A stretch of DNA of 64,000 nt, from NCBI GenBank assembly GCA_000002445.1, contig CM000208.1, positions 2,720,001-2,784,000 of the forward strand, written 5' to 3'. Positions within the stretch are counted from its first letter, which is position 1. Every line of letters begins with the position of its first letter. The notes below the pieces were generated by a model that saw only the letters and a list, made by a program, of their open reading frames with translations, made no database searches and had not been told where the DNA came from. The stretch is from Trypanosoma brucei (Eukaryota). Of the stretch, positions 2,208-57,017 are shown piece after piece. The translations under genes were made by a program, and so were the position numbers.

Positions 2208-2719
2208 TTATATTTGTTGAAGTCACGAAAGGGGACCTTCTTTTTGTTTTTGTAACGTATTGTTGCCGTCGGGTGTATGCACCTTGTGGAGGCGTTGAAC
2301 GTGGCTCCATGCGGCACACTTCGTTGTGTTTCTTTTGCTTTTATTTAGTTCTCTTTTTTTATATTTGGTTTAGCCACATGGCCCAATAACTACACCCCTA
2401 CACCACCCATTTGGCCTTAACCACCCTTTGGGATGCCCATGGAGGCATTCTACACGGTTGCTTGAAGCCTTCAGCGCGTTATTATTATTATTATCAGCAG
2501 TCTTTGTCACTGTTATTATTTTGTTTTTTTCTTCTTGTTACCTTTATTTTCATATCTTTTCATTTGTACGTACCGGGTGAAGTCAATAAAAAACGAGAGA
2601 GGAGGGAACTGTGTTTAAGAGAGGTGAATTTGGTGTATGAAGCATACGGGAAGCGTAACAGATTTAGGGAAACCTGGTATTTGCAAAAGAAAAAAAAAAG
2701 AAAGAAAAAAGAAAAAAAG

Positions 2720-2758
2720 ACACACACACACATGCACACACATGCACGCACACACACG
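2720..2758. repeat. (CA)n microsatellite preceded by an A/G-rich homopurine tract (2683-2719)
   Basis: cacacacacacatgcacacacatgcacgcacacacacg. Confidence 0.95.
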
Positions 2759-3142
2759 TATAGCGAACCTATAAGGGAAGAGGAGTGATGTTGAGAAGGA
2801 AGGAGAAATAAAACGATGGAGGAGGGAAAAAGGCAACAAAGGAGGGAAATAAAGCCCTTTCGTTCAACAGTGAAAGTGATTTTTTTTTTTCCTTTTTTCC
2901 CACCTTTTTTTGAAAAAAAAACTTTGTTTTCTGTCCTCTTCCTTTCTTCCCCACATAGGAATTGGTTTAGTGAAGAGTGAGCGGGAGTGTGGAATGTAAG
3001 ATGAAGTGGGTGTAATATTTTTTTTTGTTTTGTGAGGTGTTAGGGAGAAGGGGGAAACACTTTGTGTGGTGAGATTATTGTGTTGTTAGTGAGTGGATAC
3101 CGACGAAAAGGCAAGGGAAGGAAAAAGGAGAGGGGGGAAAAA

Positions 3143-3198
3143 ACAACAACAACAACAAAGAAAAGCAAAAGGGTGTTCCGAAACAACAACAACAACAA
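3143..3198. repeat. two (CAA)5-6 blocks
   Basis: caacaacaacaacaacaa at 3143-3158 and again at 3183-3198. Confidence 0.9.
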
Positions 3199-4515
3199 TT
3201 GCATAAATGGAAGGCTTGTGTATATGTTTACCGTGAAGCAACGCGTTGGGTTTACCCGCCTTCCCGTATATTTATTCGTCACCATTAAAGAAAGGGAGAA
3301 GAAATATGAAAAAAAGAAATCCAAAGGGGATGAGGGATGACGTAACTGTTCTATGAATGCCCAACGTGAACACGTGCTCATGCACACACTTATATGTAGC
3401 AACAATTACAAACGAATACAAAAAAAAATAAGTATAAGTAAATAAACAACCACACACATATATATATATATATACGTTTTCCTGTAAGTTTAAAATACTT
3501 GTTTTAGGATTCATGGTAAGGAGAGAAAAGTTATATAATGATAACATGAATATACATATATGAATATGTACGCTTGTGGAGGAGGTGTGTGTGTGTGTGT
3601 GTGTGTGGGGAACCCTGGCAGCGGGAAAGTACATTAACTTTCCGGTGTAGTGGGGGTTATAAGTTTTTTTCTTTCTGTTTTCCCCTTTCACCCCCTTGTT
3701 GTTGTTCCCTTTTTTTTTTTGTTTAAGCTTGTGAATCAGTGGTGCCCTTCTCCATTGCCATCAGTATTGTAGGCGAAACGGTATTCCTATACTTTTGTTT
3801 TTCTTTCCTTTCTTGCAGTCCTTTCCCCTGTCTTCACTCACAACTGTTGTGTGATACATTTGATTACTTTTTTTTTCTTTCTTTTTAAATTTTGGCTGCA
3901 CTTCTTTCGCTCCATGTACAGGTTTACAGAAGGCAGTTTTCTTGGGAAAGAGTGTGTTACTTAATTTCTATGGTAAGTGAGTGAACAATGGATGATTATG
4001 ACGTCTCTAAGGTCGCGCACAGTCATTGCTGGCACACCGTAGCATTCCTTGAGGCATATCTTTTCTCTTGTCTAAAATTCCCCCCATTGCTGCGGCATTT
4101 ACTTGCTGGATTTCACCCTCATTCTTGCTTGTTACTCTTCTTCCTCTTTGTCTTCTCACTGTTTGTGTTTCCATGTGCCCTTTTTTAAAAAAATTATTTG
4201 TTGTATGTACCTTTTCAGGTATTGTGAGTGAATAACACATTAAACAAGCCAGAAATTAAGGGACGTGAACCTAATAGGGACACTCAAGGGAATTGGGGCG
4301 GGATAGTGTGGAGTGGTGAGACCCACTGAAGTGACGGCAATCCCTGAAGAAGAAAAAAAAAAGAGAAATAATTAAAGGTAACAAGGGCCACATAAACGCA
4401 TACGGAGACGTGCTGCGACTTTGCCGGTGTGCCTTCTTAGATTTAGCGTATCCTGGAGTGTGCATTTGACTCCTATCGGACTTGCTTTCTTTTGGTCAGA
4501 GACAAAGAAGAAAAC

Positions 4516-6705
4516 ATGAATATTTTTTCCTTTGGGAGGGAAAGCATGTGCTCTTTCTCAGCCACAGAGGGAAAGGAGAGTGTGCCTCTAACCGCACGGT
4601 CGTATGAGCGATCCCGGTCTGAGCTCTTCGAGGGCCTTACCACCACCCGTGCCGTTGCTCTGCAGGCGACGACCTCAAGTAACTTCCCTTCGAGCAGCAA
4701 TGCGAAGCAGGTACCTGACGGTGAGGGTTTGTTTTCCATGGGCAGTTGTTCCGTATCCACGGACAAAGTGGAGGAAAACTCAACCATCTGTGAGACCTCC
4801 AGGTCTGCTGGGGGGAAGCAACGGAAACAGAAGGGTCAACAGAAACCCCGTAAGGCAAAAACGAATAACTCTAGGGACGATAACAAGAAGAAAAATGCGA
4901 CGAATACAAAGACGCCGCAGCGGACGTCACGGAAGAAAAGCGGGAAGCGCAAGAAGAGAAGGTCTAGTTGTCGAAGTATGGGTGAGGCAAGCGTGCGGAG
5001 CAACGGGACACCTGCAGAGGGAGAGATTGAGAGTAGTAATGCTGAATCAAGTGTTCAGTTACCACGGCCCTTTAATACCCCAAAGGGTGTACCGGCTGTG
5101 GTGCATGTTGTGGCACACAATATCGCAGAGATGCAGGGAAGGAAAAGAGAAAGTTGCGTCCAATCGCTCTCGCGCCCGTTTGAAATGTTCGATCGAATAG
5201 TTTCCAGACCCGAGTGTGGCAAGGATGCCCAGGAAACGCCTTCAACAGCGGCTTCCCACAGCGATCTTCACACCTCTATATCTGTGTTGAAGGGGCAAAG
5301 CTCCACGACCATCGATTTACCTGAGAGGAGTAATTCTGTGGTTGGCGTGTTTGCGACTGCAACAACTCCGGCACTTCCTTCTTCGCCGCCGCTGTATGGA
5401 AGGAGCAGCAGGCGTGAACATACAGCGCGTGCCGGGGATGGTACGGCATACTTGTCGTCGTTGACATTTTCATCATTACTGGGCTCCTTCCAAAAAGAGC
5501 AAGAGAAAACAGAAAGGCCCCCAGCTAAGAGCCCCTCCACCCTTGAGGGTCTTACTCGACACTCTCTCACAGATATGGTTGAGGGTAAAGTCCCGAGTAA
5601 AACTGAACCTGTTGTAGAACGACTTCTCGCACGCACTCTGAGCTCAACTTCTGAGAAAGAGCGTACGGCGACAATTGTGTTCGACCTTGACGAAACCCTT
5701 TGCAACAACCGCGTGAACGGTCCCGCCATACTTAGACCCGGTGCGATTGATATACTGGGAAAACTGCGGTCGCTATATCCCCGCTGCATCGCACCTGGGG
5801 ATGGGGGCTCGCCAGTTCGTGATGCAAGCGCCTCCGCGGAAAGTGTAGGAAACTCCGGTAGCAGAAGCGGACTAGTTCCGACGGATGTGACGGCTGGTAA
5901 TGGTCCTTTGCTGCAGCTGGAGATTGTTCTGTGGACCGCAAGTGTGGAATCGGTTGCACGTCCCGTAGTCGATCGACTTGACCCTGATGGCACCATCTTT
6001 GATTGTGTTATATGCCGCGACGCGCGTTGGTACGACGAATCTGGATACACGAAGGACCTGCGCCTTCTTGGTCGTTATATTGAGCGTAGCGTAATAGTGG
6101 AGAATTCTCCCCTCTGCGTGAAGTTGAATCGGCGTAACGCTATTCTTGTGAGCGACTTCGTGAGGAATCGAATGGACCGACAACTGTACGTAGTGTGCGT
6201 TATACTTTTGGAGTGGCTCGATAACGTGAACAATCTATTGCTGCGAAAACATATGATGCGTGTCAATATGGAGCGTCGGAGGGGCTGTGGGATGTCCGAT
6301 GGCGGAGAAAGTCCCGAACCGGAAATGCCGCCGAGCGAGGCCCAACTAAGGGGTTCAAAGACACCTGGCCTCACAAAGCCGCATAAAGCGGATATGCTGG
6401 GCTCGACTCTTCCTTTGCACGAACTTGAGCGAAGGGCTTCTGCGATTTATTTTGTGGGGAGCCATCCTTTTATTTCACCCTCAACGCGTCTTGTTAGGTC
6501 GTCTGCTTGCCAACAGGCGGTAAGGTATCTTTGTGGAGAGGGATTTGCCTCTGGGAAGATGAAAATCATCTCGAGGAGGCGCCCGGCAGCAAAACATGCG
6601 GCAGTTACGCCAAACACACCAAAAGGAAGATCTTCTTCGCTTACTTCCATTTCACCTGCACCGGTCCCTGGAAGAGCGCCTTCGCGGGAAGTGTCGTGTT
6701 CCTGA
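4516..6705 (+). CDS. NIF/FCP1-homology (CTD small phosphatase-like) HAD-family protein phosphatase with a long basic, low-complexity N-terminal region
   Basis: Catalytic DxDxT motif in TIVFDLDETLCNN. The downstream block LWTASVESVARPVVDRLDPDGTIFDCVICRDARWYDESGYTKDLRLLGRYIERSVIVENSPLCVKLNRRNAILVSDFV aligns with the SCP1/NIF core (FTAS...A..V.D.LDP...F..RL.RE.C......YVKDLS.LGRDL..V.I.DNSP.....N.....S.F). The track start 4492 is a TTG, and the first ATG is at 4516. The N-terminus carries K/R-rich NLS-like runs (KQRKQKGQQKPRKAK..., KKSGKRKKRR). Confidence 0.85.
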   Translation: MNIFSFGRESMCSFSATEGKESVPLTARSYERSRSELFEGLTTTRAVALQATTSSNFPSSSNAKQVPDGEGLFSMGSCSVSTDKVEENSTICETSRSAGGKQRKQKGQQKPRKAKTNNSRDDNKKKNATNTKTPQRTSRKKSGKRKKRRSSCRSMGEASVRSNGTPAEGEIESSNAESSVQLPRPFNTPKGVPAVVHVVAHNIAEMQGRKRESCVQSLSRPFEMFDRIVSRPECGKDAQETPSTAASHSDLHTSISVLKGQSSTTIDLPERSNSVVGVFATATTPALPSSPPLYGRSSRREHTARAGDGTAYLSSLTFSSLLGSFQKEQEKTERPPAKSPSTLEGLTRHSLTDMVEGKVPSKTEPVVERLLARTLSSTSEKERTATIVFDLDETLCNNRVNGPAILRPGAIDILGKLRSLYPRCIAPGDGGSPVRDASASAESVGNSGSRSGLVPTDVTAGNGPLLQLEIVLWTASVESVARPVVDRLDPDGTIFDCVICRDARWYDESGYTKDLRLLGRYIERSVIVENSPLCVKLNRRNAILVSDFVRNRMDRQLYVVCVILLEWLDNVNNLLLRKHMMRVNMERRRGCGMSDGGESPEPEMPPSEAQLRGSKTPGLTKPHKADMLGSTLPLHELERRASAIYFVGSHPFISPSTRLVRSSACQQAVRYLCGEGFASGKMKIISRRRPAAKHAAVTPNTPKGRSSSLTSISPAPVPGRAPSREVSCS

Positions 6706-7023
6706 TTTTCTCTTTGTCTTTCGGGTATGTTGGTGCCACTTGAGGGGTCATATGTGTGCACGTGACAAATGCCCTGTCATTCAGCAAGGAGGTCTGCAGC
6801 GGCACATGTGCACAAAGAAATGTGTACCCACCATCGCCTACGTGCAAGTTCCGCTTCGTCATCATTTCGTTGCGTCGTTGGCTTTCCCCCTCCTTTTCCT
6901 TCCCTGTCTCTGCATGGTCGAGTCTGCCACCTCACTTGCAGTGTCGCAGCACGATGCCTAGATTTCACAGAGTTCGTAGCTTGTGCTGCGGCATGTTATT
7001 GTTTGTGTCGGTTCTAAACGATG

Positions 7024-7026
<3 letters not shown>

Positions 7027-7058
<32 letters not shown>
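7027..7058. repeat. (TA)16 microsatellite
   Basis: tatatatatatatatatatatatatatatata. Confidence 0.95.
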
Positions 7059-7062
<4 letters not shown>

Positions 7063-9285
7063 TTGCTGTGCTTGTGAGGTGGTAAGGGTATACCTGCATG
7101 TGCATTTGCATGGTTAACATGAGGGCTGCCGTTGCACTGCAGAAATCGTTAAGTGTGTAGCCGCCGTTTGGGGCCGGCTTCTTCCCCCTTTGTTTCACTT
7201 CTTTTATCTCTATCTTTCACTTTTTATTTTCCTTCTTCTATTTCGTTTTTTTCCGTTACCCACCCGTTGGGAGAGTTTTGATCACTTATTTTGGAGCGTG
7301 GGTTGCAGTGGTTTGCACGGTGGTGAAATATTTTTCCTTATTATTTCGCTTTTCATGCTCCACTTAAAAGGTATGTATATCTATATTTATGTGTGTGGTG
7401 AGGTATATGGAATAGAATAAAAGGCCAAACTAAAATGCATGAGGGGGAGGGAAGTTGTGAGGCACGAAGAGGGGAAGTGGAAGGGATGGAGGAAAGAAAG
7501 AAAAAGTTCAAAAATAACCCCACCCTCAAAAAAAAAAAAGAGAGGAAGACTAGCGCGAGGGAGATGAAAAATGGAATAATCTGCATTGAGGAATTGTAAA
7601 GAAAAAGGCGAACACACATGCACAAACATACAATAATGGGTGAACCAGCGATGCATATGGTTCGAAATAAAGTAAGGGAGTTGGAAAAAATTTGAAACGG
7701 TGCCCGTATCTCATTTTCCACTTTTTTACATCTTCTGCCGCCTTTGGTTTAGCCCTTCTTTCTTTCCTTTGGTTGAATTCACATGTTCCTTTTCTCTTAA
7801 GTCCGTCTGGAGTTTTCATTGAGGATGGGATGGAGGGTCGCCGTTTAGTATGCATATATATATATATATATATGCGTTTGTGTATTGGGAAAATCAAAAA
7901 TTCCGTCAATGAGTTGGTGTTTTTTTTTTACTTTTTAATACCTTTTTAAAACCCTTTTAAAACAGCAATGTTAGTTGTTGCTTTTTTTTTTCCCCCTTGT
8001 TCTCTTCTATCCAGTAGGGGACTTTCCCTTTCCTTCAGAGATTGTGCCGCAAAAAAAAACCCAAAGGTCTGTTTTGACAGTTGAGCTCGCTTCCATGCAA
8101 TGCAAAAACTATGTTCATAACTATCTCTATATCTCTTTCTTTCTTTTTCCGCCAGCCACTTCCGTCGTATCGCGTCACCCCCCTTTTTGTTGTTTTCCCC
8201 AATTTTCCTTCTTTTCCTTTTTACGCTTCCGTGTGTGCTTTCGTAGAGGATGGTGTGGGGGTTTATTGCCTCCTTTTTTTTATATTTTTATTTTGCAGAG
8301 GTGGGATGACGACAAGGGGCGGGGGGGAGCGGTGAGGGACGAGGAGACATTTTGGATGAGTAATGGGATAATATCACCGCGAGAGCTCGACGAGGGTTCG
8401 ATTTATTGCGTTTGTAGCGCAGGGGGGCACATGTGTGCGTTTAGAGAAAAATATCATATCTGATTCTAGGTGCGTAGGTGCGCGCGCGTGTGTGTGTGTT
8501 TGTGTGTGTGGGGAGGGAAGCCGCTTTAGTTTCACGGCTCCTCAAGCCGCTGTGCCTGGGAATGCATTCTCAGGTTATGGCACAGTATGAGGGCCGTATA
8601 GGGTGCCACTTTTTTGTTTTTTTTTTTCGTGATGGAACTGTCTCTGTCCATTCTTTTTGTCTTATCCCTTTAACATTTCACTTTTTTTTTTTCTTTACTC
8701 CATCTTCACTTTGTCTTGCGGATATTCAGGTACATTTGTGACGCCGCATGTGAAATACTGGGGGAGGGGGAATTCTAGCTGGGTTTGCCCTAACTCTAAC
8801 CTCACTTTTTTTTTTTTTTTAAATCCTTCCTCTCTCCTCGGTGGATGCCATCGGTGGCTGCGTTGGCGCCACCCCCCTCCATCGATTTCTCTTTTGTGTC
8901 TTCGTTCTTTCACTTAATTTCACTTTTTTTTATTTTTGTTTCTTCCATATCCCCCGCCTCCCCCAAATCATGCCTGCCCTTGACTCTTTGCATATTACAA
9001 CGCTGGTACCACCTGCAGTCGTCCGTCAACTTTCTTCCGTTTGAATTGGGTGTGAGAGGAAGAAGCAGCCGTATGAGGGTACCGGGTCTACCGCGACTGT
9101 TATCGACAAACAAACCTCCGCACATACGGTAGCACCAAACCAATACAAGTTCACGGTAAAACTTGAGTATCAAAGACCAGTTCCCCCCTTTGCTGCCCCA
9201 TAAGCTTAATTACCCTAGTTGTGCGTCTTTCTATATGAAAAATAAACGCATGTTTACATATATATACGTTTGTGTGAATGTCACT

Positions 9286-16157: not shown

Positions 16158-16440
16158 TCCACTGCACTCTAAGTAGCAGGACCATCACTTTGAGTTCTCT
16201 CTCTTCCTTTTAAATTCCTGGAACGGTACGGCCTCGTGAGGGGAAGGGGAGAGTCATTTATGTTTCTGCCTTCATATCTATATATTTTTTTTTGCTTCAT
16301 CCACTTTCCCCCGAATAACAACATAAGGTGTAGGCGTGAGGCCTACTTGTGTCTAGTGGCCGTGTGTAGGTGGCAGCGTTGCAACAACGCTGTGAGAACG
16401 CCTGCTGTGGCTTTTCTGCGGAGGGGTGGAGAGAAGCTTC

Positions 16441-17454
16441 ATGTGGCGCCGGGGGATTTTACTTCTCGCACCACCTCGCGTGCTCTGTCTTACAATGGCG
16501 CCAGGTGGGACTATGGCGACGGCGCTCACGCAACTCGGTTACAAGCCGTACACATTTCGTCACACATTTACAGAGGGACGCGTCGGCACGCATCCGCAGG
16601 AGTGGTGCGCGGTTCTTGACAAGGAGAAGGCTTTTGACTCCACTATTTTAGGGAACTCGCAGTGTGGGGCCGCAACAGCGGGTAATGGAGTTAGTTTTGA
16701 TGCACTGGTAGGGCTACCCAGTACATTGGCATTTGAATCCATACTAAGGGAGTGCCCTTTAAGCACACGTGTTATTCTCGTAGAAGAGACTGACAAGGAT
16801 GCCTGGATGAGAGAGGCGGAAACAACGTGGGAACTGCTTTTGCAGCAGACGGAGCGGGCGGCGCGGCGACGTGCGGGCGCGTACCTTCACAAAATGGTCC
16901 AGAAAATGACCACGGGCATAGTGAGTGGGGGATGTGGAAAAAGAAAACAAATATCACCAGTTGCTTTTATTGATATGCTTGAGGAGCGCATCAAAAAAAC
17001 TGTTCCACGGGATCGGTTGCTCGTATATCGCTACGGTGATGGCTGGGAGCCGTTATGCCGCTTCCTCTCCAAGCCTCTTCCAACTGGAGACGGTACCGAA
17101 CCTCTGCCTTTCCCAGCGCGTGACGACGGTACATCTGACGTGGCCTATTTGGCCGATCGACTGCAGCGTGTTGATCGAGTTGTCTGGTGGGCAACATGTT
17201 GCCTTGTCGCTGCCGCTATTGTAATTTACACACCCTTCTGCGCTCAACTGCGTGACATTGTGGCGGAATATTACGTGGACTATCGTTCCTCCTTTGAACC
17301 CCTTTTGGAAGAGAGCGCTGCTTCTGGTGGCAAACTCACACTCCGCCGGGCTCTCGTTTTGGCGAAAAATACAACAATGGCTTTTGAAGAGAAGTTAAAT
17401 GAGCGTGGGGGTGTTGTTGGGGCGGCGGGTGAGGCGCTGAGTAAACTTACATAA
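16441..17454 (+). CDS. Sulfotransferase-family (Sulfotransfer_4/PF17784-like) protein with a C-terminal hydrophobic segment. Alternative starts lie at 16495 and 16513.
   Basis: The track start 16426 is a GTG. In-frame ATGs are at 16441, 16495 (MAPGGTMATALTQ) and 16513. FDALVGLPSTLAFESILRECPLSTRVILVEETDKDAWMRE and LLVYRYGDGWEPLCRFLSKPLPTGDGTEPLPFP resemble the conserved Sulfotransfer_4 blocks (..yP.AKvIlt.Rd...W..S and GWEPLC.FLg.pvP...FPh.N). A predicted transmembrane stretch VVWWATCCLVAAAIVIYTPFCA lies near the C-terminus. Confidence 0.5.
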   Translation: MWRRGILLLAPPRVLCLTMAPGGTMATALTQLGYKPYTFRHTFTEGRVGTHPQEWCAVLDKEKAFDSTILGNSQCGAATAGNGVSFDALVGLPSTLAFESILRECPLSTRVILVEETDKDAWMREAETTWELLLQQTERAARRRAGAYLHKMVQKMTTGIVSGGCGKRKQISPVAFIDMLEERIKKTVPRDRLLVYRYGDGWEPLCRFLSKPLPTGDGTEPLPFPARDDGTSDVAYLADRLQRVDRVVWWATCCLVAAAIVIYTPFCAQLRDIVAEYYVDYRSSFEPLLEESAASGGKLTLRRALVLAKNTTMAFEEKLNERGGVVGAAGEALSKLT

Positions 17455-48874: not shown

Positions 48875-50779
48875 ATGAGTGCCAAGTTACAACCCATCTT
48901 AGAATCGGCCGACGCAAACGCACCCTTCGACGTTCCGGTGACTCCGATTAAATCCTTTAGTACCAACACGATAATTGGAACGGAGGCCGGCATACGGCCG
49001 ACGGATGGTCACAGTGAATGTAGAATTAGTGTAACCGCTGCGGAGTATGGCGGTAAGTCACATGACCGCATGGTCGGCAGCGATAGCGACATTACATCTG
49101 CCGCCTCATCATCCGGTTCACACACAGGGAATAACTTTCACTGCTACACTAATGAGGGTAGTGGTGAGGGGGGAGGTGGTGCACGGAAACTGGCACCTCA
49201 TCTCCAAAGTTATGAGGAAAACACTCCCACAGAGGCCAGCACGGCCGCGGGCGCCTCTCCAACTCCTAAAGGGGGAAACTCCGATGCGGAGGAAAGCTCC
49301 CATGGGTTTAGAGTCCCCTCGTGTGAACCTCCATCTCAAAGGGAGCTCTCAGTAGCGATGGATTCACATTCTGGGATACAACACAAGCATGAAAACCTTC
49401 TGAGTCCACATGATTCCAGCGATTTCAGCGGCGATGATGTGTCTCATAGGCGGTGCGAAGAGGCTGACGATATGCAGCCAAACCAAGGCAATCAAGGAAA
49501 GGCGAATGGAACTGGGGAAATGAGGGGTACCCGGCAAAATAAGGGGAGGCCGGCAAATGTCCTCAGGCTTCCGCCGACAACCAAACCATCGTTTGTGCAA
49601 GTTGGAACCGTAAGGGATCATAATCTGACGGTTGCCATTAAGCAACGTGTTAGCCACCACGCGGCAGTTTGCGCGAGAGTCAATGCAGTGCCACGGAAGA
49701 TGTGTCTTTCTTCAATACTCCCGTCCTTTGGTACGGCAATGGAGATGCACAGTTGCAAGAGGCAGAACATGCTATTTCCTTCAAGTACGCACGTTCTTCC
49801 TTCTTGTTTGCCCGCCGTGGGCAAAAATGGAGGCTGCGGGTACTGCTCGTCAACTTTTGCCGCACCTGAAGATATTGAAATGAGAGTAAAGAGGGGAAAT
49901 GATGTGGACTGCACACTGCACAGTGTTGGCGGAAAATTACCCACGCAGTCGCCCATGATGTCCCTGTCGTCATCGCACTTGGAGAAGGAACCCGTTTCGG
50001 TGTGCCGTGTAGACAATGATAAATTGGATGAGGAGGAAGAATTAGGGTTCGTCGTTATCGTCAAGGGAAAACATCAATGTAAAGGCTATCTGACAGGTCA
50101 ATCAAATCTATCGGCTGGCGCAGTTGTTATTGTGGAGGGAGACCGTGGCGAGGACATTGGAACCATTCAGCAAGTGTATGCCATAGAAGACGTTGACCAG
50201 CTGCTTCACATGAAAGTAAAGATGACTGACGCTGCCGAAGAAGCGGGAGGGTGTTCGAGCACTGTTGACGATACGACTACGGGTGCGTCTGATACCCCTC
50301 ATGAAGAGGCGGTGTTGGACTCCTGTAGCGTTGCTCGAAGTGACGCTCAACCCCCTGACGATGGCATGCGTCTCCCACGAGTCCTCCGTCTTGCCACATC
50401 GGAGGATATTGCACAACTTTCTGCCCTTCGAGATGAGGAAACCGAGCTTCTGCCGAACGTGTTGCGTGTTGTTAACGGGTTTATATCCAAGTCTACCTCC
50501 GCCGCTGGTGTCACCCTTGTTGACATTGAGTTCCAGTTCGATAAGAAGAAGTTGACAATTTACCTCCGCCGCCCAACAGAGACAGGGTTTGTGAACTTCC
50601 GCCGCATGCAGCGACGGTTCCATCGTCTCCTGAAATGTCGCATTTGGCTAGCGTACATGGATGAAGTAGAGCGCCAAGTAGAGGCCTACATCGAGAAGGC
50701 TCCTCTCGGTTGTGAGGTGAAGGACCGGGAGCCGTCACGGGACCGGTGTCTAGGCGCGGGAGATTTGATCGTAGTTTAA
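48875..50779 (+). CDS. PSP1 C-terminal conserved-domain protein (putative post-transcriptional regulator)
   Basis: The C-terminal region CKGYLTGQSNLSAGAVVIVEGDRGEDIGTIQQVYAIED...LPRVLRLATSEDIAQLSALRDEETELLPNVLRVVNGFI...IEFQFDKKKLTIYLRRPTETGFVNFRRMQRRFHRLLKCRIWLAYMDE matches the PSP1 C-terminal domain core (VIVEaDRGeDLGtV...vlR.At..D......k...E..A.......e....l.meIvdaEyQfD..KLtFyY.A..RVDFReLV..Lf..yk.RIWm). The N-terminal half is low-complexity. Confidence 0.65.
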   Translation: MSAKLQPILESADANAPFDVPVTPIKSFSTNTIIGTEAGIRPTDGHSECRISVTAAEYGGKSHDRMVGSDSDITSAASSSGSHTGNNFHCYTNEGSGEGGGGARKLAPHLQSYEENTPTEASTAAGASPTPKGGNSDAEESSHGFRVPSCEPPSQRELSVAMDSHSGIQHKHENLLSPHDSSDFSGDDVSHRRCEEADDMQPNQGNQGKANGTGEMRGTRQNKGRPANVLRLPPTTKPSFVQVGTVRDHNLTVAIKQRVSHHAAVCARVNAVPRKMCLSSILPSFGTAMEMHSCKRQNMLFPSSTHVLPSCLPAVGKNGGCGYCSSTFAAPEDIEMRVKRGNDVDCTLHSVGGKLPTQSPMMSLSSSHLEKEPVSVCRVDNDKLDEEEELGFVVIVKGKHQCKGYLTGQSNLSAGAVVIVEGDRGEDIGTIQQVYAIEDVDQLLHMKVKMTDAAEEAGGCSSTVDDTTTGASDTPHEEAVLDSCSVARSDAQPPDDGMRLPRVLRLATSEDIAQLSALRDEETELLPNVLRVVNGFISKSTSAAGVTLVDIEFQFDKKKLTIYLRRPTETGFVNFRRMQRRFHRLLKCRIWLAYMDEVERQVEAYIEKAPLGCEVKDREPSRDRCLGAGDLIVV

Positions 50780-52534
50780 ATGATACAAATGCGTCTGTGA
50801 GGGCTGCTGGATTATAAGCGAATCGTGGTGAGGAAAGGTGGAGATTGAGGAAAAGCATATATTATAGGTGAACGGGCTCGTGCACGTGCTTGCAGTGCCA
50901 GTCAACTCCGGTATTACGTGGCGAGAACACGGGTGTGGTATTGATGCACTACCTCGTAGTGCCTAGGATGCTATTTCACAATCTATTCAGTTCTTTTTTC
51001 CCTCTTGGGTCTTCCCTTATCCTTCTTAAAAGGTATTGTGGCATTGCTTTAAGGTTTATTTACCTTCGCTGCCATTTCCATTTTGCCCGCTGCGCTCGAT
51101 AACGTTCGATTGTTATGATCACACAACTTTTTTGGGACCGTATTTTATACAGATCTGATTCTGCATGGTTTGGCCGCTGCAGCTTTTGATCCCCCATTAG
51201 TCCTTTTGTTTTTGTTTCCGTTCCATTATTTTATTTGACTTTGGGTGGACTTTCCTCCCTTCCCCTCTCTTATTGATACGCTCTCCCGTTCGTTCCACAT
51301 ATGTTTGTGTTACTTTTAGCCGTGGTGATGACATGTATTTGTGCTGTGACTAATTATTTCCGGAAAGATATTCATGTGATGGATTAGTAGATAAATTTAA
51401 ATCTTCACCTGGTGAGTACCCCCTTTTTTTGTTTATTTCTTTTGATCGTGTACTTCCCTCCCCCATACACAATACGCTCTTTTTTTTTTTTTACTTTTGT
51501 TGGTTTGTTCGTGGCATGAGTTTTATATCGATTTATCAGAGAATCAACCAATAACAAATACTTGTATGTATATGTTTACATGTATGTGCTTCCCTTTTAT
51601 ATGCATTTGTTTTACTTTGGAGAAGCTGGGACTCGCTTTCCGCTTCTTTTCTTTTAAAAGAAAAAAAAAGTAATTTCCTTGTACAGATGTTTTATTTTTG
51701 TCATGTTTGTTTTGTTTATTGTTATTTATTTTATTTTACAGTTTAGCGTGATTTCGTTTTTCTGACACGTGAAGGCCACCAACCCCTCCAAGAAGAAAAG
51801 GCACAGAAGATCAGAGAAACCAAAAAGAGAAAAAGGAAATAATAATAATAAAACAAAATAAAGGTGAATGTAAAGCGGAAAGATAATTTTTGGGGAGTTA
51901 ATGTGAGGAACTGAAGTGAGCAGACGCGGGACCTATTTATTCGTTCCTTTCATTATTATTTTCGTTTCTTACATTTCTGCGGTACTTCCCTTCATGTTTC
52001 ACGTCCGCTCGTCTCCATTCCCTTATTTATTTATTTCTTTTTGGTCTTTTCACTCCCTTTCCCTTTTCTATTACAAAAACAAATAACAAAAAACAATAAA
52101 AAAATTATGTTCATCGCCGCGTCGTAGTGTTGTTTACCATAACTTCCCTCTCCTTCTCCCCCTCCAAAAATATGAATGAATTACCTCTTTTTTTTTTTCC
52201 TGACGTCATGATGGGCCTTTCCATTTGTTACTTCCATTTTTATTTTATATATTTCTGTTGTTTACTTCATTTCACCATACTTATTTTCTACATTTACATG
52301 TTTTATTTTCGTGTATTTATGGTATATTCCACATTGCTATCTTATTACTTCATTTCTAACTGTGTTATTATTATTATTATTAAAGTTGTTGTTATTATTA
52401 TTATTATTTCAATGTATGTATCAAAGAAATAAATTATCAAACCAATAAGTGAATAGTTTTAATAGCTACAGCTTTGATACGCATTTTCGTGTGTCTATGA
52501 AAGGAAGCGAAGCAACATAAAGATAAAAAAAAAA

Positions 52535-52584
52535 GCAAAAGCAAAAGCAAAAGCAAAAAAAAAACAACAACAACAACAACAACA
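52535..52584. repeat. (GCAAAA)4 followed by (CAA)7
   Basis: gcaaaagcaaaagcaaaagcaaaaaaaaaacaacaacaacaacaacaaca. Confidence 0.9.
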
Positions 52585-53423
52585 CATATATGTTTCTTTA
52601 ATTCGTTTACATCTTCTTTTTTACGTGCGCATTCCATCACCTTTCATTCATTCAACTTTTTTTTCCATTTATTTACTTATTTTTATTTTATTTATTTTAT
52701 TTGGTCACCCTCTCAGTCACTTGCTTTTTATTTCTATCATCATTATTTACATGTATGTGCATGTGAAGATGTGCTGTTCACAAATGTGCGTGTGTGTTTA
52801 AATAAATATATAAATATATAAATGTATGTATTTGTATGTGTTGTGATGAATTTGAAATGTTGCGCCTTCGCAATTTAGTGTGGGGTCACTGCTGAGGAGT
52901 TGGGGAATTCTGTATGCAATTTGTGTTTTTGTTTGTTTAATTTATATTTTTACGCCTCTAATTTTATTTAAGTAATGATATAAGGGATATGTTTAAAAAT
53001 ATCTTTAGAAAACGCCAAACGAATGAATAAATGAATGAATGAGATAATTAAAATGTACGTACAATAGTGTATTTAATGAGCGAAGGCACGTTACTGTGTG
53101 GCATTAAGATGGCACGTAAAATCAAAACAAACAAACAAACAAATAATAATAATGATATGTATATATGTATTTGTATATTTAAAAGGGGTAAATGCGATTC
53201 GTGTGAGGGGTGGTGGTGGGAAATGTTTGGTAACGACAAACAAAAAGAGGGATACCAAGAATAGGTAAGCAAATAAATAAATAAATTAAAATAATAAAGG
53301 TAACTCTCTGGGGCCCGTGTCGGCAACCCAGGAAATAAAAAGTTAGTTTTATTCTTGTTATTTTATTTTCTCTTTTTATGCACTGTCACCGCTTAGCAGA
53401 GGCAAGCCCTTGTGCCGTTGCCC

Positions 53424-53424
<1 letters not shown>

Positions 53425-53452
<28 letters not shown>
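53425..53452. repeat. (ATT)9 microsatellite
   Basis: attattattattattattattattatta. Confidence 0.95.
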
Positions 53453-53454
<2 letters not shown>

Positions 53455-55401
53455 TTGCTGCTGACGTGCCGTTGTTTTTTTTTCTTCTTCTTTTTTTAAT
53501 ATATATTTGTTTATTTATTTATTTATTTGTGTGTATGCGTATGTATATATATGTGACGTTTTGGCTTCGTTGTAACGCTTCGACTTTTTCGTGTAAGATT
53601 GAGAGATTTATGTATTCATTTTTTTTTGTTTTGAGTTTGTGCACTTCTTAATCCGTCATAGCTTTATGAGTTATTGATTTAGTTGTTTTCTTTTCTTTTT
53701 TTTCTTTTCCTTCCTTCTCCTGCTTCATGCATGTAGGATATGAGGGAATAAATGAAGAAGATAGATGAAATAAAAGTGAAGAAGTGAAAGGGAGGTGGAG
53801 GGGGAGGGGAAAAAAAAATAAATAAAAATGAAATAAATACAAACAAACAAACATAAAAAGAAGAAAAAAAGAGAAAGAGAGAAGAATATATGAGACAATT
53901 AAAAGGCCGCCACCACCATTAGAAAATATAAAAATAAAAATAAAATAAAATAAACACGCAGGCGCGCGACCAGAAAAAAAAAAAAAAGAGGAAACAGAGG
54001 GAGAACAGGCGAATAGGAGAATAATGACGGCACGGATGCGGATTGCCGAGGTTTTCTCAATCCATCAGTGGATGTTTTTTTTTCTTTTCCTTTTTTTTTC
54101 TTTAAGTTTTATTTCCTTTTTATGCGTTTCCACACCGACATGTGTTCGGTCTTACGTGCATAACAGATGTGCGTTACTGCGCAAATACATTCAGACATTT
54201 TCGTTTCCTTTAGTTAAGAGAGGATCAAAAAAGGAAAAAAAAAGAGAAAAAGAGAAGAATTTAGAATAATAATTAAAAAAAAATCATAGCGGTACTTGAA
54301 CCTTATATTCTTTTTCTTTCTTTTCTTTCTTTTTTTTTTTTTTGGAGGAAGTGGCACAAAGAGTAACGGTTTTTTTTTTTTTGTGGGGGGATTTCCTCCA
54401 TTCTCTTGAATGATGGTGTTAAGATGAACTGCCATGTCTACACCTATACAAGTATTAATTTTTTTCTTTTTTTTCTTTTTAAAATTAGTACTATTACCGT
54501 TACTATTGTTATTACCGGATTTCATTATTATTATTATGATATATTTATTATTATTATTATTTTTTTTGCGCTTATTACTACTCGTCAAAACGGGTTTCTT
54601 CCACAGTTTTTATCCCAAAACGATGATTTTTTTTTTTAAAAAAAAGATGAGGAAGAGAAAAGGAGAGAAAGAAAATAATAAAGTTTTATTTTTATTTTTA
54701 TTTTTATTTTTAAAAAAATGATAACGGAACTAAAGAGAAGGAAACACACACGTACTCATATTCATATATTCATACATACACACACACACACACATGAAAA
54801 GGGGAAAAGGCGGGGCCTCTTTTTTTTTTTTTCTTTCTCTCCTTTTCTTTGGTGGTTCTTGTTTCAGTGAGCTGTTGGAAGTCTTTTTTTTTTTCTTTGC
54901 AGGAATTTATTTGTGTCCATGGTTTTGTGCTTTAGGGAAACCCGCCACGTCACTTTTATTTCAACTATTATTTATATTCATTCTCTCCTTGTGTTGTCTT
55001 TTGCCTTTCATTAGAGCTAAATATATATTTTTTTTTTTTAGAAAAAGAGAAAAGAAAAGAAAAGGAAAACAAAAGAAGAAAATACATTTGTCACCTATTT
55101 TTGTCTAGTGGCTATTGGCATTATTTACAGCAGATATCAGCTGGCACCTGACGGGTGAGTTTTGTTTGGGTGACTGAAAACCAAACAAAAGAATTAAGTT
55201 AGGGGACGTGACGGTTGATTTTCTTTTTCTTTTCTTTTCTTTTTTTAAAAAGTTTTCTCCCTATTTTGTTAGTGAGATTTTCATTACCAACTACTGTACT
55301 TACATTCAGGAAACCCGTCGGTGTGTTTGTGTTGTAGCGAAAATATTTCGTGCGTTACTGAATTCACCTCCTTCATATATTTCCATACAACAGTGCTGAG
55401 C

Positions 55402-55444
55402 ATATATATATATATATATACGCATACGCAACCGCATATACATT

Positions 55445-55490
<46 letters not shown>

Positions 55491-55512
55491 TATTAATATT
55501 AATATATATATT
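55402..55512. repeat. long (TA)n/(TATTAA)n tract immediately upstream of the prenyltransferase-alpha gene
   Basis: (ta)n at 55402-55420 and 55452-55487, then tattaatattaatattaatatatata. Confidence 0.95.
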
Positions 55513-55541
55513 TATTTAATTAAATCCCTGTTTGGTGAGGG

Positions 55542-57017
55542 ATGCATGACCAACGAAAGGTACGACCACACAACATCGGGGAGAAGGCGCGGGAGCAACA
55601 ACTGGAAAAAATACGGCAATTTACAACCTTGTATGACTCATTACTTGAGCGGCGAAGCAGGCGTGTATATGAGGAATCGATTCTTCCACAACTAGCGGAG
55701 TTGTTGACTAAAAATGCAGAAGCATACACGATGTTTAATTATAGGCGTGAAGTATTATTGGATTTGTGGAGGAAGATGCCTGAAGCTGCTGCTTGTGAGA
55801 CCGTTGCACCACCTGAAGCGGTAAAAGGCGAGGAGAAGCGGCAACAATCGGTAGTAAAAACACAACTGGATTGGTTAAGCGAGGAACTGAAACTCAGTTC
55901 GAGTATAATTCAGAGCGATTACAAAGTGTATGCGGCATTTGTGCACAGACGCTGGGTATTTATGCAACTGCGCCGCCTCGCAGAATCCGCACTGGGAAAC
56001 GTCGGGAAGCGTTCAAAACCTGCCGCCCCTGCGGGATGTCAGTTGGGGGAATGTGCGGCTGCGGGTGAATTCGATCTTCCGGAGGAGGTTCTTTTTTGGG
56101 CGAAAGCGCTGCTTAAGGAAAAACGGCAAGGTGACGCGTTACTCGCAATGGATGAGCGGAATTTTCATGCATGGGAGTTCCGGCGGTGGGTAATGTATCA
56201 ATTGGGACAAATGGAAGATCTGTTCGTACAGAGTTCCATTCAATTCGGACCTGCAGTTGTGGGGATTAAAGAAAGGGAGTTCGCATCTTACATGAATGGC
56301 AGTGCCAAGTCTGATCGACCGCGTGATTTGTTCTTTACCCCAACAGAAGTAAAAGAATTGAACTTTACGTCGGCAGCTGTTCGGCGAAACTTTTCCAATT
56401 ACAGCGCCTGGCACCAGCGAGGATTTATTATGCAGGGTGCACTTCGGCGTTTGCAACAGCGTCAGTGGCGGGAAGAGGAGGCAGACAACAATCTCCGTGA
56501 CGGGATGCTTTCGCAGGCTTGGGGGCAATTGGAGGAGGATTTGACACTTCTCACTACCGCCATTTATTGTGACCCATTGGATCAATCAGCGTGGTATTAC
56601 GCGAAATTTCTCATACACGCCTCTAAGCAGTTGACAGCGTTGCCTTTTGCTTCAACAGCAGTTCCTATTGATATCACAGCGAAACTGGATGAGGTTTGTC
56701 TGGATCTTGTAGGGGAGGAGCGGCGTTTAGGGGAGGATATGGAAACGTATTGGCCTTATTTACATCTTGCCACGTCTCTACTCACAAGTATCAAAAAAAG
56801 CAACGACGGTAACAGCAGTGATGTGATTAGCGATCGGCAGTCGGCGTTAAAACTGGCACGTGAAGTATGGGCTGCCCTACAACCACAAGGAAGGCACGTT
56901 AATGGTGATGATGATTGCATTAAATGCTTGCAAGAATTATGTGCTCACTTAACTACGGCTGACCCTTTACGTGCGGGCATGTACAAATACTTCCTTTCTG
57001 AGGTTACCACAGCGTAA
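55542..57017 (+). CDS. protein prenyltransferase alpha-subunit repeat protein (FTase/GGTase alpha or RabGGTase alpha-like)
   Basis: Repeated PFTA-type motifs NYRREVLLDLWRK, NFHAWEFRRWVMYQL, NYSAWHQRGFIMQ, DQSAWYYAKFLI (consensus N.s.W..R....). Clean ATG start after a long (TA)n/AT-rich tract. Confidence 0.8.
   Translation: MHDQRKVRPHNIGEKAREQQLEKIRQFTTLYDSLLERRSRRVYEESILPQLAELLTKNAEAYTMFNYRREVLLDLWRKMPEAAACETVAPPEAVKGEEKRQQSVVKTQLDWLSEELKLSSSIIQSDYKVYAAFVHRRWVFMQLRRLAESALGNVGKRSKPAAPAGCQLGECAAAGEFDLPEEVLFWAKALLKEKRQGDALLAMDERNFHAWEFRRWVMYQLGQMEDLFVQSSIQFGPAVVGIKEREFASYMNGSAKSDRPRDLFFTPTEVKELNFTSAAVRRNFSNYSAWHQRGFIMQGALRRLQQRQWREEEADNNLRDGMLSQAWGQLEEDLTLLTTAIYCDPLDQSAWYYAKFLIHASKQLTALPFASTAVPIDITAKLDEVCLDLVGEERRLGEDMETYWPYLHLATSLLTSIKKSNDGNSSDVISDRQSALKLAREVWAALQPQGRHVNGDDDCIKCLQELCAHLTTADPLRAGMYKYFLSEVTTA

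What the first reader, a model, noticed from the sequence alone, without database searches (positions are those of the whole stretch)
50780..55541. 4.8 kb AT-rich, ORF-free, low-complexity block inside a unidirectional gene array
Between the PSP1-domain gene and the prenyltransferase-alpha gene lies about 4.8 kb with no ORF over 100 aa on either strand. It is dominated by A/T homopolymers and by (ATT)n, (GCAAAA)n, (CAA)n and (TA)n arrays. A few compositionally normal islands are embedded at about 51100-51420, 52830-52960 and 53290-53420. This is much longer than the other intergenic gaps here (0.4-3 kb). It could be an unusually long AU-rich 3'UTR of the PSP1 gene, as regulatory genes in trypanosomes often carry them, or it could hide small ncRNA genes. 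It is not a tandem 100-200 bp repeat array, so it does not look centromere-like.
Basis: seen in the sequence. Interest (0 to 1): 0.5.

Follow-up and report, generated by a model that had tools for sequence, protein, structure and literature searches.

The report
Long AT-rich trypanosome 3'UTR/intergenic spacer
The 4.8 kb gene-free, AT-rich stretch is an ordinary, if long, untranslated spacer of Trypanosoma brucei chromosome 10, most likely the low-complexity 3' untranslated region of the PSP1-domain regulator gene Tb927.10.11630, with no sign of hidden small RNA genes, a promoter or a centromere.

Summary
Window 50780-55541 is a 4,762-nt gap with 32% GC. It has no real ORFs and is full of microsatellites and A/T homopolymers. 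It is the longest and most AT-rich of the 20 intergenic gaps in the window.

The window is T. brucei TREU927 chromosome 10, 2,720,001-2,784,000. The gap lies between Tb927.10.11630 (PSP1-C protein PCD5) and the Rab geranylgeranyl-transferase alpha gene, inside one plus-strand polycistronic unit.

Nothing else was found in the gap:
- No Rfam family, tRNA or C/D snoRNA candidate.
- No unusually stable fold in the "islands".
- No Pfam hit and no dispersed repeat.
- No block conserved in T. vivax, T. melophagium or T. cruzi, whose equivalent gaps are 2.2, 1.4 and 1.3 kb.

Kolev et al. 2010 list no internal transcription start in this unit and no novel transcript in the gap.

The gap carries the usual trans-splicing and polyadenylation grammar. 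There are 20 polypyrimidine tracts. The last one (55219-55246) is followed by an AG 289 or 269 nt before the downstream ATG.

Most likely reading: a 3'UTR of up to about 4.3 kb, possibly with shorter isoforms or by-product non-coding RNAs, plus the downstream gene's 5'UTR. No RNA-end data for this gene could be retrieved. The finding is ordinary and of low interest.

The parts
48875..50779 (+). CDS of the PSP1 C-terminal-domain protein Tb927.10.11630 (PCD5), 634 aa; the upstream gene whose 3'UTR the block most likely is
   Evidence: Pfam PF04468, E=1.6e-13. The protein is identical to TREU927 XP_823370.1/EAN78542.1. The computed mass of 68,401.8 Da matches the 68.402 kDa listed for Tb927.10.11630 in PMC6907760. 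The neighbours Tb927.10.11610 (Skp1-like) and .11620 (Ca-ATPase) match the window's gene order.
50780..55100 (+). Presumed maximal 3'UTR of Tb927.10.11630, about 4.3 kb. It is AT-rich and low-complexity, with many internal polypyrimidine and polypurine tracts. The 3' end is predicted, not mapped.
   Evidence: There is no gene, ncRNA or conserved block inside. The predicted poly(A) zone lies 123-178 nt upstream of the predicted splice acceptor (spacing rule from Kolev 2010), that is about 55075-55150, directly after the A/G-rich tract 55040-55082.
52365..52584 (.). Microsatellite cluster: (TTA)n 52365-52408, (AAAAGC)n 52531-52558, (AAC)n 52563-52584
   Evidence: TRF. These tracts vary in length between T. 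brucei subspecies.
53424..53452 (.). (ATT)9.7 microsatellite
   Evidence: TRF. Indel-polymorphic between subspecies.
53686..53726 (+). Strong internal polypyrimidine tract (41 nt, score 37) with an AG 9 nt downstream (53735); candidate alternative trans-splice/polyadenylation module
   Evidence: PPT scan.
53742..53886 (+). Long polypurine / A-rich tracts (53742-53833 and 53855-53886)
   Evidence: Pairs with the preceding PPT when 53670-53900 is folded: MFE -41.4 kcal/mol, z -2.0.
54075..54103 (+). Strong internal polypyrimidine tract (score 29) with an AG at 54105, preceded by the polypurine tract 53972-54021
54308..54343 (+). Strong internal polypyrimidine tract (score 36) with an AG at 54346, preceded by the polypurine tract 54227-54259
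54816..54850 (+). Strong internal polypyrimidine tract (score 35) with an AG at 54866, preceded by polypurine tracts 54638-54675 and 54796-54815
55040..55082 (+). Polypurine / A-rich tract just upstream of the predicted poly(A) zone; complementary to the last polypyrimidine tract
   Evidence: Inverted repeat I13: 33 nt, 88% complementary. The hairpin 55025-55265 folds at -67.4 kcal/mol, z -4.65.
55219..55246 (+). Last polypyrimidine tract before the downstream CDS; predicted trans-splicing signal of the Rab GGTase-II alpha mRNA
   Evidence: Score 28, 296 nt before the ATG, with no other tract scoring 14 or more in between. A comparable tract lies 280 nt before the ATG in T. melophagium and 203 nt before it in T. 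b. gambiense.
55251..55541 (+). Predicted spliced-leader acceptor AG (55251-55252, alternative 55271-55272) and a 5'UTR of about 270-290 nt for the GGTase-II alpha gene, including the (TA)n tract 55402-55515
   Evidence: Sequence and first AG after the PPT. The (TA)n is the largest indel between subspecies (92 alignment columns). The T. equiperdum OVI assembly breaks there.
55542..57017 (+). CDS of Rab geranylgeranyl transferase (type 2) alpha subunit, 491 aa
   Evidence: Pfam PPTA, E=4e-30. Orthologues are named geranylgeranyl transferase type-2 subunit alpha. EAN78543.1 is the next accession after the PSP1 protein in TREU927, which suggests no annotated CDS in between.

Best explanation
The block is transcribed, non-coding spacer inside a Pol II polycistronic unit of T. 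brucei chromosome 10 (TREU927 v4 2,770,780-2,775,541).

Mechanism (established trypanosome biology; inferred here, not measured). Pol II reads through the block. The polypyrimidine tract at 55219-55246 and the AG at 55251/55271 direct spliced-leader addition to the Rab GGTase-II alpha mRNA, giving a 5'UTR of about 270-290 nt. Coupled cleavage and polyadenylation about 120-180 nt upstream, next to the A/G-rich tract 55040-55082, makes the 3' end of the upstream RNA. That upstream RNA is most likely the Tb927.10.11630 (PCD5) mRNA, with a 3'UTR of up to about 4.3 kb.

The U-rich, AU-rich and polypurine low-complexity sequence would act as a landing pad for RNA-binding proteins that set mRNA stability and translation. 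The 20 internal polypyrimidine tracts, five of them very strong in 53686-55246, must normally be ignored or masked. Their occasional use would give shorter 3'UTR isoforms and short spliced, polyadenylated by-product RNAs.

The sequence itself is weakly constrained. It drifts by microsatellite slippage and is an expansion found in the T. brucei group.
For: Identity and context:
- The PSP1 protein equals TREU927 XP_823370.1.
- The window is anchored to Tb927_10_v4 at offset 2,720,000. Tb10.26.0420 at 2736260-2736619 is an exact 360-nt ATG..TGA ORF at window 16260-16619. The listed RPS3-position poly(A) site and 3'UTR length also fit.
- All 21 large ORFs are on the plus strand and cumulative GC skew shows no reversal of trend.
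- Kolev 2010 Table S14 lists one plus-strand unit, Tb10.26.0690 to Tb10.389.1460, with no entry for a unit starting between them.

No other content:
- Rfam 0 hits at gathering; the best sub-threshold hit is 30.7 bits against a cutoff of 100.
- No tRNA.
- 0 C/D candidates against 0.04 expected.
- Nine of ten island folds have z between -1.23 and +0.93; the tenth is -2.12.
- Small ORFs have no Pfam match.
- No repeats shared with the rest of the window.
- Kolev Table S7 has no Tb10.NT transcript with a coordinate in 2,770,000-2,775,999.

Processing grammar:
- Plus-strand PPT density is 4.2/kb, within the range of the other gaps, which are mostly 2-7/kb.
- The last PPT lies 296 nt before the ATG.
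- Spacing rules come from Kolev 2010.

Weak constraint:
- 113 substitution columns (2.4%) plus 43 indel runs among three subspecies, against 0.5-0.9% in the flanking CDSs.
- Only microsatellite matches to T. vivax, T. melophagium and T. cruzi, whose gaps are 2,249, 1,423 and 1,333 nt.

Precedent:
- 3'UTRs range to about 6 kb in Kolev 2010.
- A gene in the same unit, Tb10.26.0140, has 5.5-6.5 kb.
- RBP10 has an 8.5 kb 3'UTR, and long 3'UTRs contain many PPTs that DRBD18 is proposed to mask.
- Long low-complexity 3'UTRs are typical of RNA-binding-protein and kinase mRNAs.
- Tb927.10.11630 carries the GO term for post-transcriptional regulation and is cell-cycle regulated.
Against: - No mapped poly(A) or spliced-leader site for this gene could be retrieved. 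Kolev's PAS summary shows no entry between 2,743,550 and 2,791,410 in the retrieved passage of a truncated file, and the per-site tables are truncated in the held copies.
- Five of the window's 14 strongest polypyrimidine tracts cluster in the distal 1.6 kb. Each has an A/G-rich tract nearby and is followed by an AG. The real major poly(A) site could therefore be much more proximal, for example about 53.6 kb, with the rest made into separate short RNAs or degraded.
- The deeper lncRNA catalogue (1,428 genes; PMC9200285) could not be queried.
- Kolev's data are from procyclic forms only.
Confidence: 0.6

Rival explanations
1. Short or medium PSP1 3'UTR plus one or several independent trans-spliced, polyadenylated long non-coding RNAs. 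The distal 1.6 kb (53686-55246) would be cut into RNAs of about 150-500 nt by its five strong polypyrimidine/AG modules.
For: - Five PPTs with score 28 or more are each followed within 2-16 nt by an AG, and A/G-rich tracts suitable for polyadenylation lie next to them.
- T. brucei has at least 1,428 mostly intergenic, AT-rich lncRNAs with normal SL/poly(A) signals.
- UTR-internal transcripts are documented.
Against: - Kolev 2010 Table S7 (1,114 novel transcripts) has none with a coordinate in the gap, and the gene is not in the alternative-3'UTR list, Table S3.
- PPT presence alone does not define a used splice site (PMC9380746).
- Other long gaps in the window also hold strong internal PPTs.
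- About 20% of annotated lncRNAs turn out to be parts of UTRs.
Confidence: 0.27
2. The block hides small structured ncRNA genes (C/D or H/ACA-like snoRNAs or others) in the less AT-rich islands.
For: - Trypanosome snoRNAs are processed from Pol II polycistrons, and a snoRNA is embedded in the grumpy lncRNA.
- Three RUGAUGA motifs exist in the gap.
Against: - No Rfam family reaches threshold in the whole window. The relaxed search gives only low-complexity artefacts.
- No C box / D box / terminal-stem candidate on either strand.
- Most islands fold no better than shuffles.
- No tandem cluster organisation.
- No cross-species conservation.
Confidence: 0.03
3. The gap is a chromatin or transcription landmark: an internal Pol II start or termination site, or a replication origin inside the unidirectional array.
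For: - It is the longest gap in the window.
- Internal start sites exist in T. brucei.
- A G-rich tract lies at 53784-53809.
Against: - Kolev 2010 Table S14 lists the unit Tb10.26.0690 to Tb10.389.1460 as one plus-strand unit starting at a divergent region, with no entry for a start between them.
- No tRNA gene.
- G-runs are common throughout the window and are not enriched here; no GT-rich excess.
- GC skew stays positive across the gap overall, with no reversal of the cumulative trend.
Confidence: 0.03
4. Degenerate remnant of a gene or mobile element, or centromere-type repeat DNA.
For: Lineage-specific expansion relative to T. vivax and T. melophagium.
Against: - No Pfam signal in any ORF.
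- tblastx finds nothing but low complexity.
- No long-period tandem repeat.
- No dispersed repeat shared with the rest of the window.
- Not at a strand switch.
- Indels between subspecies are microsatellite or homopolymer slippage, which explains growth without insertions.
Confidence: 0.02

Closest known systems
Long low-complexity 3'UTRs of T. brucei regulator mRNAs (e.g. RBP10, 7.3-8.5 kb; mRNAs bound by ZC3H28 and DRBD18)
   Same: - Lies downstream of a regulator-type gene in a polycistronic unit.
- Kilobases long, AU/U-rich, with poly(AU), polypurine and many internal polypyrimidine tracts.
- Length is within the documented range.
   Different: - The 3' end is not mapped here.
- No binding or reporter data exist for this UTR.
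- At about 4.3 kb it is shorter than the RBP10 example.
UTR-internal or intergenic spliced, polyadenylated lncRNAs of T. brucei (Kolev 2010 novel transcripts; Guegan 2022 catalogue, e.g. grumpy)
   Same: AT-rich intergenic sequence carrying ordinary polypyrimidine/AG and A-rich signals that could yield 150-500-nt RNAs.
   Different: - No such transcript is listed in the gap in Kolev's Table S7.
- No embedded snoRNA-like element was found.
- The Guegan catalogue could not be queried.
Canonical trypanosomatid intergenic processing module (poly(A) site, polypyrimidine tract, AG spliced-leader acceptor)
   Same: The last 500 nt of the gap match it. There is an A/G-rich tract at 55040-55082, a 28-nt PPT at 55219-55246 and an AG 5 nt later, with spacing compatible with the 123-178 nt PAS-to-SAS distance.
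   Different: The A/G-rich tract and the PPT are 88% complementary over 33 nt and can form a long hairpin. This pairing was not seen upstream of the orthologue in T. vivax, T. melophagium or T. cruzi.

Membership tests
Trypanosomatid 3'UTR / intergenic spacer inside a Pol II polycistronic unit | Lies between two same-strand protein-coding genes of one transcription unit | tested here: met
   All large ORFs are on the plus strand. Kolev 2010 Table S14 places the locus inside the plus-strand unit Tb10.26.0690 to Tb10.389.1460.
Trypanosomatid 3'UTR / intergenic spacer inside a Pol II polycistronic unit | No conserved ORF or known RNA gene inside | tested here: met
   In TREU927 the flanking proteins have consecutive accessions.
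Trypanosomatid 3'UTR / intergenic spacer inside a Pol II polycistronic unit | Polypyrimidine tract plus AG acceptor upstream of the downstream CDS, with an A-rich zone about 120-180 nt further upstream | tested here: met
   PPT 55219-55246, AG 55251, A/G-rich tract 55040-55082. Spacing rule. This is a sequence prediction only.
Trypanosomatid 3'UTR / intergenic spacer inside a Pol II polycistronic unit | Continuous RNA coverage from the stop codon to a mapped poly(A) site | not testable with these tools
   No RNA-end data for this gene were retrievable. Kolev's per-site tables are truncated, and the PAS summary shows no entry between 2,743,550 and 2,791,410 in the retrieved passage. The Logan contigs are colinear with the genome, carry no spliced leader and end at homopolymers or other low-complexity sequence.
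snoRNA gene cluster (C/D and H/ACA-like) of trypanosomes | Match to a curated snoRNA covariance model | tested here: not met
   0 hits at gathering score in the whole window. The relaxed search gave only far-sub-threshold hits in low-complexity sequence.
snoRNA gene cluster (C/D and H/ACA-like) of trypanosomes | C box (RUGAUGA) and D box (CUGA) 40-130 nt apart, closed by a terminal stem | tested here: not met
   0 candidates on both strands; shuffles give 0.04.
snoRNA gene cluster (C/D and H/ACA-like) of trypanosomes | Tandemly reiterated cluster organisation (from my own knowledge of trypanosome snoRNA loci) | tested here: not met
   No tandem repeat with a period above 21 nt; direct-repeat families are all low complexity.
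Spliced-leader trans-spliced, polyadenylated lncRNA | Own splice acceptor and poly(A) signals | tested here: inconclusive
   Five strong PPT/AG modules with A/G-rich tracts nearby. However, PPTs are common in 3'UTRs and usually unused.
Spliced-leader trans-spliced, polyadenylated lncRNA | Detected as an independent transcript in transcriptome catalogues | tested here: not met
   Kolev 2010 Table S7 has no Tb10.NT entry with a coordinate in 2,770,000-2,775,999. The Guegan 2022 tables are not held, so this is only a partial test.
T. brucei centromere | Long arrays of AT-rich tandem repeats at a strand-switch region, often with retroelements (from my own knowledge of Obado 2007 and Echeverry 2012) | tested here: not met
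   No long-period array, no strand switch, no retroelement signal.
Internal Pol II transcription start region | Listed start site, histone-variant peak or 5'-triphosphate RNA | tested here: not met
   No entry in Kolev 2010 Table S14 for a unit starting between Tb10.26.0690 and Tb10.389.1460.

The most novel reading that the evidence does not exclude
The distal 1.6 kb (53686-55246) is a regulated processing switch rather than passive UTR. It holds five unusually strong polypyrimidine/AG modules with polypurine tracts alongside that can base-pair with them. The last such hairpin (55025-55265, -67 kcal/mol) sequesters the trans-splicing signal of the Rab GGTase alpha gene. Use or masking of these modules would set alternative polyadenylation of the cell-cycle-regulated PCD5 mRNA, the output of short lncRNAs, and the splicing efficiency of the downstream gene.
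Probability: 0.12. Interest if true: 0.35.

Novelty: already known. Interest (0 to 1): 0.1.

Why it matters
It matters little beyond annotation. The work shows that a conspicuous 4.8 kb "empty" block in a trypanosome gene array needs no special explanation. It is the kind of long, low-complexity untranslated spacer already described for regulator genes in T. brucei. If RNA data confirm it, Tb927.10.11630 (PCD5) joins the set of mRNAs with 3'UTRs over 4 kb. Those mRNAs are candidates for control by proteins such as ZC3H28 and DRBD18. The locus would also be a convenient case for studying how internal polypyrimidine tracts are ignored.

Tried and rejected
ncRNA and structure searches:
- Rfam at gathering threshold on the whole window and at E<=10 on the gap gave nothing credible.
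- ARAGORN found no tRNA.
- A custom C/D-box scan found none.
- Folding ten less AT-rich islands gave z between -1.23 and +0.93 for nine. One reached -2.12, which is not significant after ten tests.

Coding potential, repeats and conservation:
- Pfam on eight small ORFs gave nothing.
- The repeat finder, and blastn of the gap against the window, gave only low-complexity families.
- blastn, nhmmer and tblastx against the orthologous gaps of T. vivax, T. melophagium and T. cruzi gave only microsatellite matches.
- Known cell-cycle and regulatory motifs are at chance level: 0 CAUAGAA, 0 UUGUACC, 1 UUGUAC, 2 UAUUUUUU.
- G-run and GT-richness profiles show nothing special in the gap.

Transcript evidence:
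- The Logan contigs (ERR79291xx; L006, L009-L015) are colinear with the genome. They end at homopolymers or other low-complexity sequence and carry no spliced leader, so they are uninformative.
- The TREU927 locus could not be fetched through the 428-aa protein.
- A homologue search with the whole PSP1 protein returned only its own cluster.
- T. congolense has no contig on record.

Literature supplements:
- Gene-level UTR data were sought in PMC4845500, PMC9200285, PMC10090614, PMC8982893, PMC9380746 and PMC12876127. Either nothing was found or no files are held.
- The old-style ID Tb10.26.0280 for the PSP1 gene is my inference from ID arithmetic only. The 7.2 RNAs per cell listed for it is therefore not used as evidence.

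Full report
**What is there.**
The PSP1-domain ORF ends at 50779 and the next large ORF starts at 55542. That leaves a 4,762-nt gap.
- GC is 0.321, against 0.38-0.50 for the other 19 gaps between large plus-strand ORFs and about 0.50 for coding sequence.
- It is the longest gap; the others are 261-3,060 nt.
No repeat has a period above 21 nt.
- The gap is 7.4% of the window but holds 34% of the bases in A/T homopolymers of 8 nt or more.
- Two ATG ORFs slightly exceed 100 aa: 54794-55108 (+), 104 aa, and 54214-54525 (-), 103 aa. Both are low-complexity translations without any Pfam match.
- The "islands" are only relatively GC-richer, at 0.36-0.41.

**Where it comes from.**
- The PSP1 protein is identical to T. 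brucei brucei TREU927 XP_823370.1/EAN78542.1 and to the T. equiperdum protein.
- Its computed mass, 68,401.8 Da, equals the 68.402 kDa listed for Tb927.10.11630 in the proteome tables of Benz and Urbaniak 2019 (PMC6907760). That paper calls it PCD5 (PSP1 C-terminal domain protein 5), with protein abundance that varies over the cell cycle and a GO term for post-transcriptional regulation.
- The upstream genes match the window order. The Skp1-like gene is Tb927.10.11610 and the Ca-ATPase is Tb927.10.11620.
- The downstream gene is the Rab geranylgeranyl-transferase (type 2) alpha subunit. Its TREU927 protein, EAN78543.1, is the next accession after the PSP1 protein, so no CDS appears to be annotated in between.
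- Kolev et al. 2010 (PMC2936537) list Tb10.26.0420 at Tb927_10_v4 2,736,260-2,736,619. Window 16260-16619 is an exact 360-nt ATG..TGA ORF. The listed poly(A) site 2,743,550 with a 158-nt 3'UTR fits the stop of the ribosomal protein S3 gene at window 23392.
- The window is therefore chromosome 10, 2,720,001-2,784,000, and the gap is 2,770,780-2,775,541.

**Is it real, and how does it evolve?**
The same gap is 4,672 nt in T. b. equiperdum IVM-t1 and 4,681 nt in T. b. gambiense DAL972.
- Among the three sequences there are 113 substitution columns (2.4%) and 43 indel runs. Nearly all the indels lie in microsatellites or homopolymers, and the largest is in the (TA)n.
- The flanking CDSs differ by only 0.5-0.9%.
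- The T. equiperdum OVI assembly has N-gaps at homopolymers and breaks at the (TA)n.

Synteny (Skp1, Ca-ATPase, PSP1, GGTase alpha) is conserved in other trypanosomes, but the gap is shorter:
- T. vivax: 2,249 nt (GC 0.46)
- T. melophagium: 1,423 nt (GC 0.23)
- T. cruzi: no PSP1 gene at this site, and 1,333 nt between the Ca-ATPase and GGTase alpha genes

blastn, nhmmer and tblastx find only microsatellite-type matches between the gaps. The block is thus weakly constrained DNA that is expanded in the T. brucei group, mainly through slippage.

**What it is not.**
- No Rfam family reaches its gathering score anywhere in the window. With relaxed thresholds the best hits (30.7 bits against a cutoff of 100, 30.1 against 90) sit on polypurine/polypyrimidine or (TA)n sequence.
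- There is no tRNA.
- A C box / D box / terminal-stem scan finds no candidate on either strand.
- Ten less AT-rich segments fold no better than dinucleotide shuffles. One reaches z = -2.1, which is unremarkable for ten tests.
- Direct and inverted repeats are all low complexity, and nothing in the gap recurs elsewhere in the window.
- G-runs and GT-richness, which have been linked to trypanosome start regions, are not enriched.
- Kolev's list of transcription units gives a single plus-strand unit, Tb10.26.0690 to Tb10.389.1460, starting at a divergent region, with no entry for a unit starting between them.
- Kolev's complete list of 1,114 novel spliced, polyadenylated transcripts contains none with a coordinate in 2,770,000-2,775,999 on chromosome 10. 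The gene is not in their list of genes with alternative 3'UTR processing.

**What the sequence says about processing.**
I scored polypyrimidine tracts across the window.
- The gap has 20 on the plus strand, or 4.2 per kb. That is within the range of the other gaps, which are mostly 2-7 per kb.
- The last one, 55219-55246 (28 nt), is followed by an AG at 55251-55252 and another at 55271-55272. It lies 296 nt before the ATG.
- A comparable tract lies 280 nt before the ATG in T. melophagium.
- Kolev et al. report a median tract length of 18 nt, and a distance from poly(A) site to splice site of 142 nt, with an interquartile range of 123-178 nt.
- The upstream RNA should therefore end near 55075-55150, right after the A/G-rich tract 55040-55082.
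- If that RNA is the PSP1 mRNA, its 3'UTR is about 4.3 kb.

This length is long but within the known range:
- Median 388 nt, range to about 6 kb
- 5.5-6.5 kb for Tb10.26.0140 in the same transcription unit
- 8.5 kb for RBP10

Long 3'UTRs with poly(AU), polypurine and many polypyrimidine tracts are typical of mRNAs for RNA-binding proteins and kinases. They are bound by ZC3H28 and DRBD18. DRBD18 is proposed to mask internal polypyrimidine tracts, and its loss yields shortened mRNAs plus spliced RNAs made of downstream 3'UTR sequence (PMC10090614; PMC9380746).

**The remaining uncertainty.**
Five of the 14 strongest polypyrimidine tracts of the whole window lie in 53686-55246. Each is followed by an AG within 2-16 nt, and A/G-rich tracts lie next to them. 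These could serve as alternative processing modules. They would give shorter PSP1 3'UTR isoforms and 150-500-nt by-product RNAs.
- T. brucei has more than 1,400 mostly intergenic AT-rich lncRNAs with normal processing signals (PMC9200285).
- About 20% of annotated lncRNAs are really parts of UTRs (PMC10048164).

I could not retrieve mapped RNA ends for this gene. The per-site tables of Kolev are truncated in the held copies. The poly(A) summary shows no entry between 2,743,550 and 2,791,410 in the retrieved passage of a truncated file. Six other papers' supplements were empty or not held. The Logan contigs that carry the flanking genes are colinear with the genome, end at homopolymers or other low-complexity sequence and carry no spliced leader.

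My estimates are therefore:
- About 0.6 for one long 3'UTR as the main product
- About 0.27 for a shorter UTR plus independent non-coding RNAs
- A few percent each for small ncRNA genes, a transcription or replication landmark, and a repeat or relic

**One structural detail.**
The A/G-rich tract 55037-55069 is 88% complementary over 33 nt to the last polypyrimidine tract. Segment 55025-55265 folds into a long hairpin at -67.4 kcal/mol, z = -4.65, with 0 of 200 shuffles as stable.
- Segregated purine and pyrimidine blocks pair almost by construction, and shuffling destroys the blocks, so the z-score overstates significance.
- The pairing is kept in T. b. gambiense but was not seen upstream of the orthologue in T. 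vivax, T. melophagium or T. cruzi.
- It might modulate access to the trans-splicing signal. That is speculation.

**Verdict.**
The "long AU-rich 3'UTR of a regulator gene" interpretation is the best supported, but it is unproven at the level of RNA ends. The "hidden small ncRNA" alternative is not supported. The feature belongs to a well-described class and is of low interest.

Noticed in passing
window 55025-55265: The A/G-rich tract 55040-55082 and the last polypyrimidine tract 55219-55251 are 88% complementary over 33 nt. They fold into a long hairpin (-67.4 kcal/mol, z -4.65) that would bury the predicted trans-splicing signal of the GGTase alpha gene. The pairing is kept in T. b. gambiense but was not seen in T. 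vivax, T. melophagium or T. cruzi. It may simply reflect block composition.
   Followed up: partly
L004 8668-10000 (T. cruzi), L003 4433-4633 and 6207-7751 (T. vivax): The syntenic locus differs between species. T. cruzi has no PSP1 gene between the Ca-ATPase and GGTase alpha genes. T. vivax retains only a short Ca-ATPase-like remnant, and it has a PSP1 orthologue (stop-free frame 6207-7751) that is not among the called genes of that assembly.
   Followed up: partly
window 55542-55730: TREU927 annotates the GGTase alpha protein as 428 aa (EAN78543.1). The 491-aa form starting at 55542 is the one annotated in T. equiperdum and T. b. gambiense, and the 489-aa T. congolense orthologue aligns over 100% of it. 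The TREU927 start codon therefore looks called too far downstream.
   Followed up: partly
L008 8749-9075 (T. b. gambiense), equivalent to about window 54214-54588 minus strand: The DAL972 annotation calls a 108-aa minus-strand hypothetical gene inside the gap. The equivalent window ORF is a K/N/I/F low-complexity translation with no Pfam match and is almost certainly spurious.
   Followed up: partly
L001 end and L002 start (T. equiperdum OVI), equivalent to window 55400-55515: The short-read T. equiperdum OVI assembly has N-gaps at homopolymers inside the gap and breaks into two contigs at the (TA)n tract. The (TA)n is also the largest length polymorphism among T. brucei subspecies (92 alignment columns).
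   Followed up: yes
window 1432-4491 and 6706-9269: Two other long gaps (3,060 and 2,564 nt, GC 0.40-0.43) also contain very strong polypyrimidine tracts far from the next ATG (scores 37 and 45). The second holds a 162-aa TTG ORF (7975-8463). They may be further long UTRs or hold unannotated transcripts.
   Followed up: no
TREU927 chr10 about 2,802,300-2,808,769 (outside the window, same transcription unit): Kolev 2010's poly(A) summary gives Tb10.26.0140 a 3'UTR of 5,466 nt (weighted mean) to 6,465 nt (major site). It shares the same major poly(A) position as Tb10.26.0100. This shows that multi-kb 3'UTRs, or mis-assigned sites across doubtful ORFs, occur nearby.
   Followed up: no
window 16260-16619: The ORF Tb10.26.0420 ('hypothetical protein, unlikely') appears in Kolev's Table S2, which from its contents I took to list annotated ORFs without transcript support. 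It overlaps the start of the 342-aa ORF 16426-17454. It served here only as the coordinate anchor.
   Followed up: no
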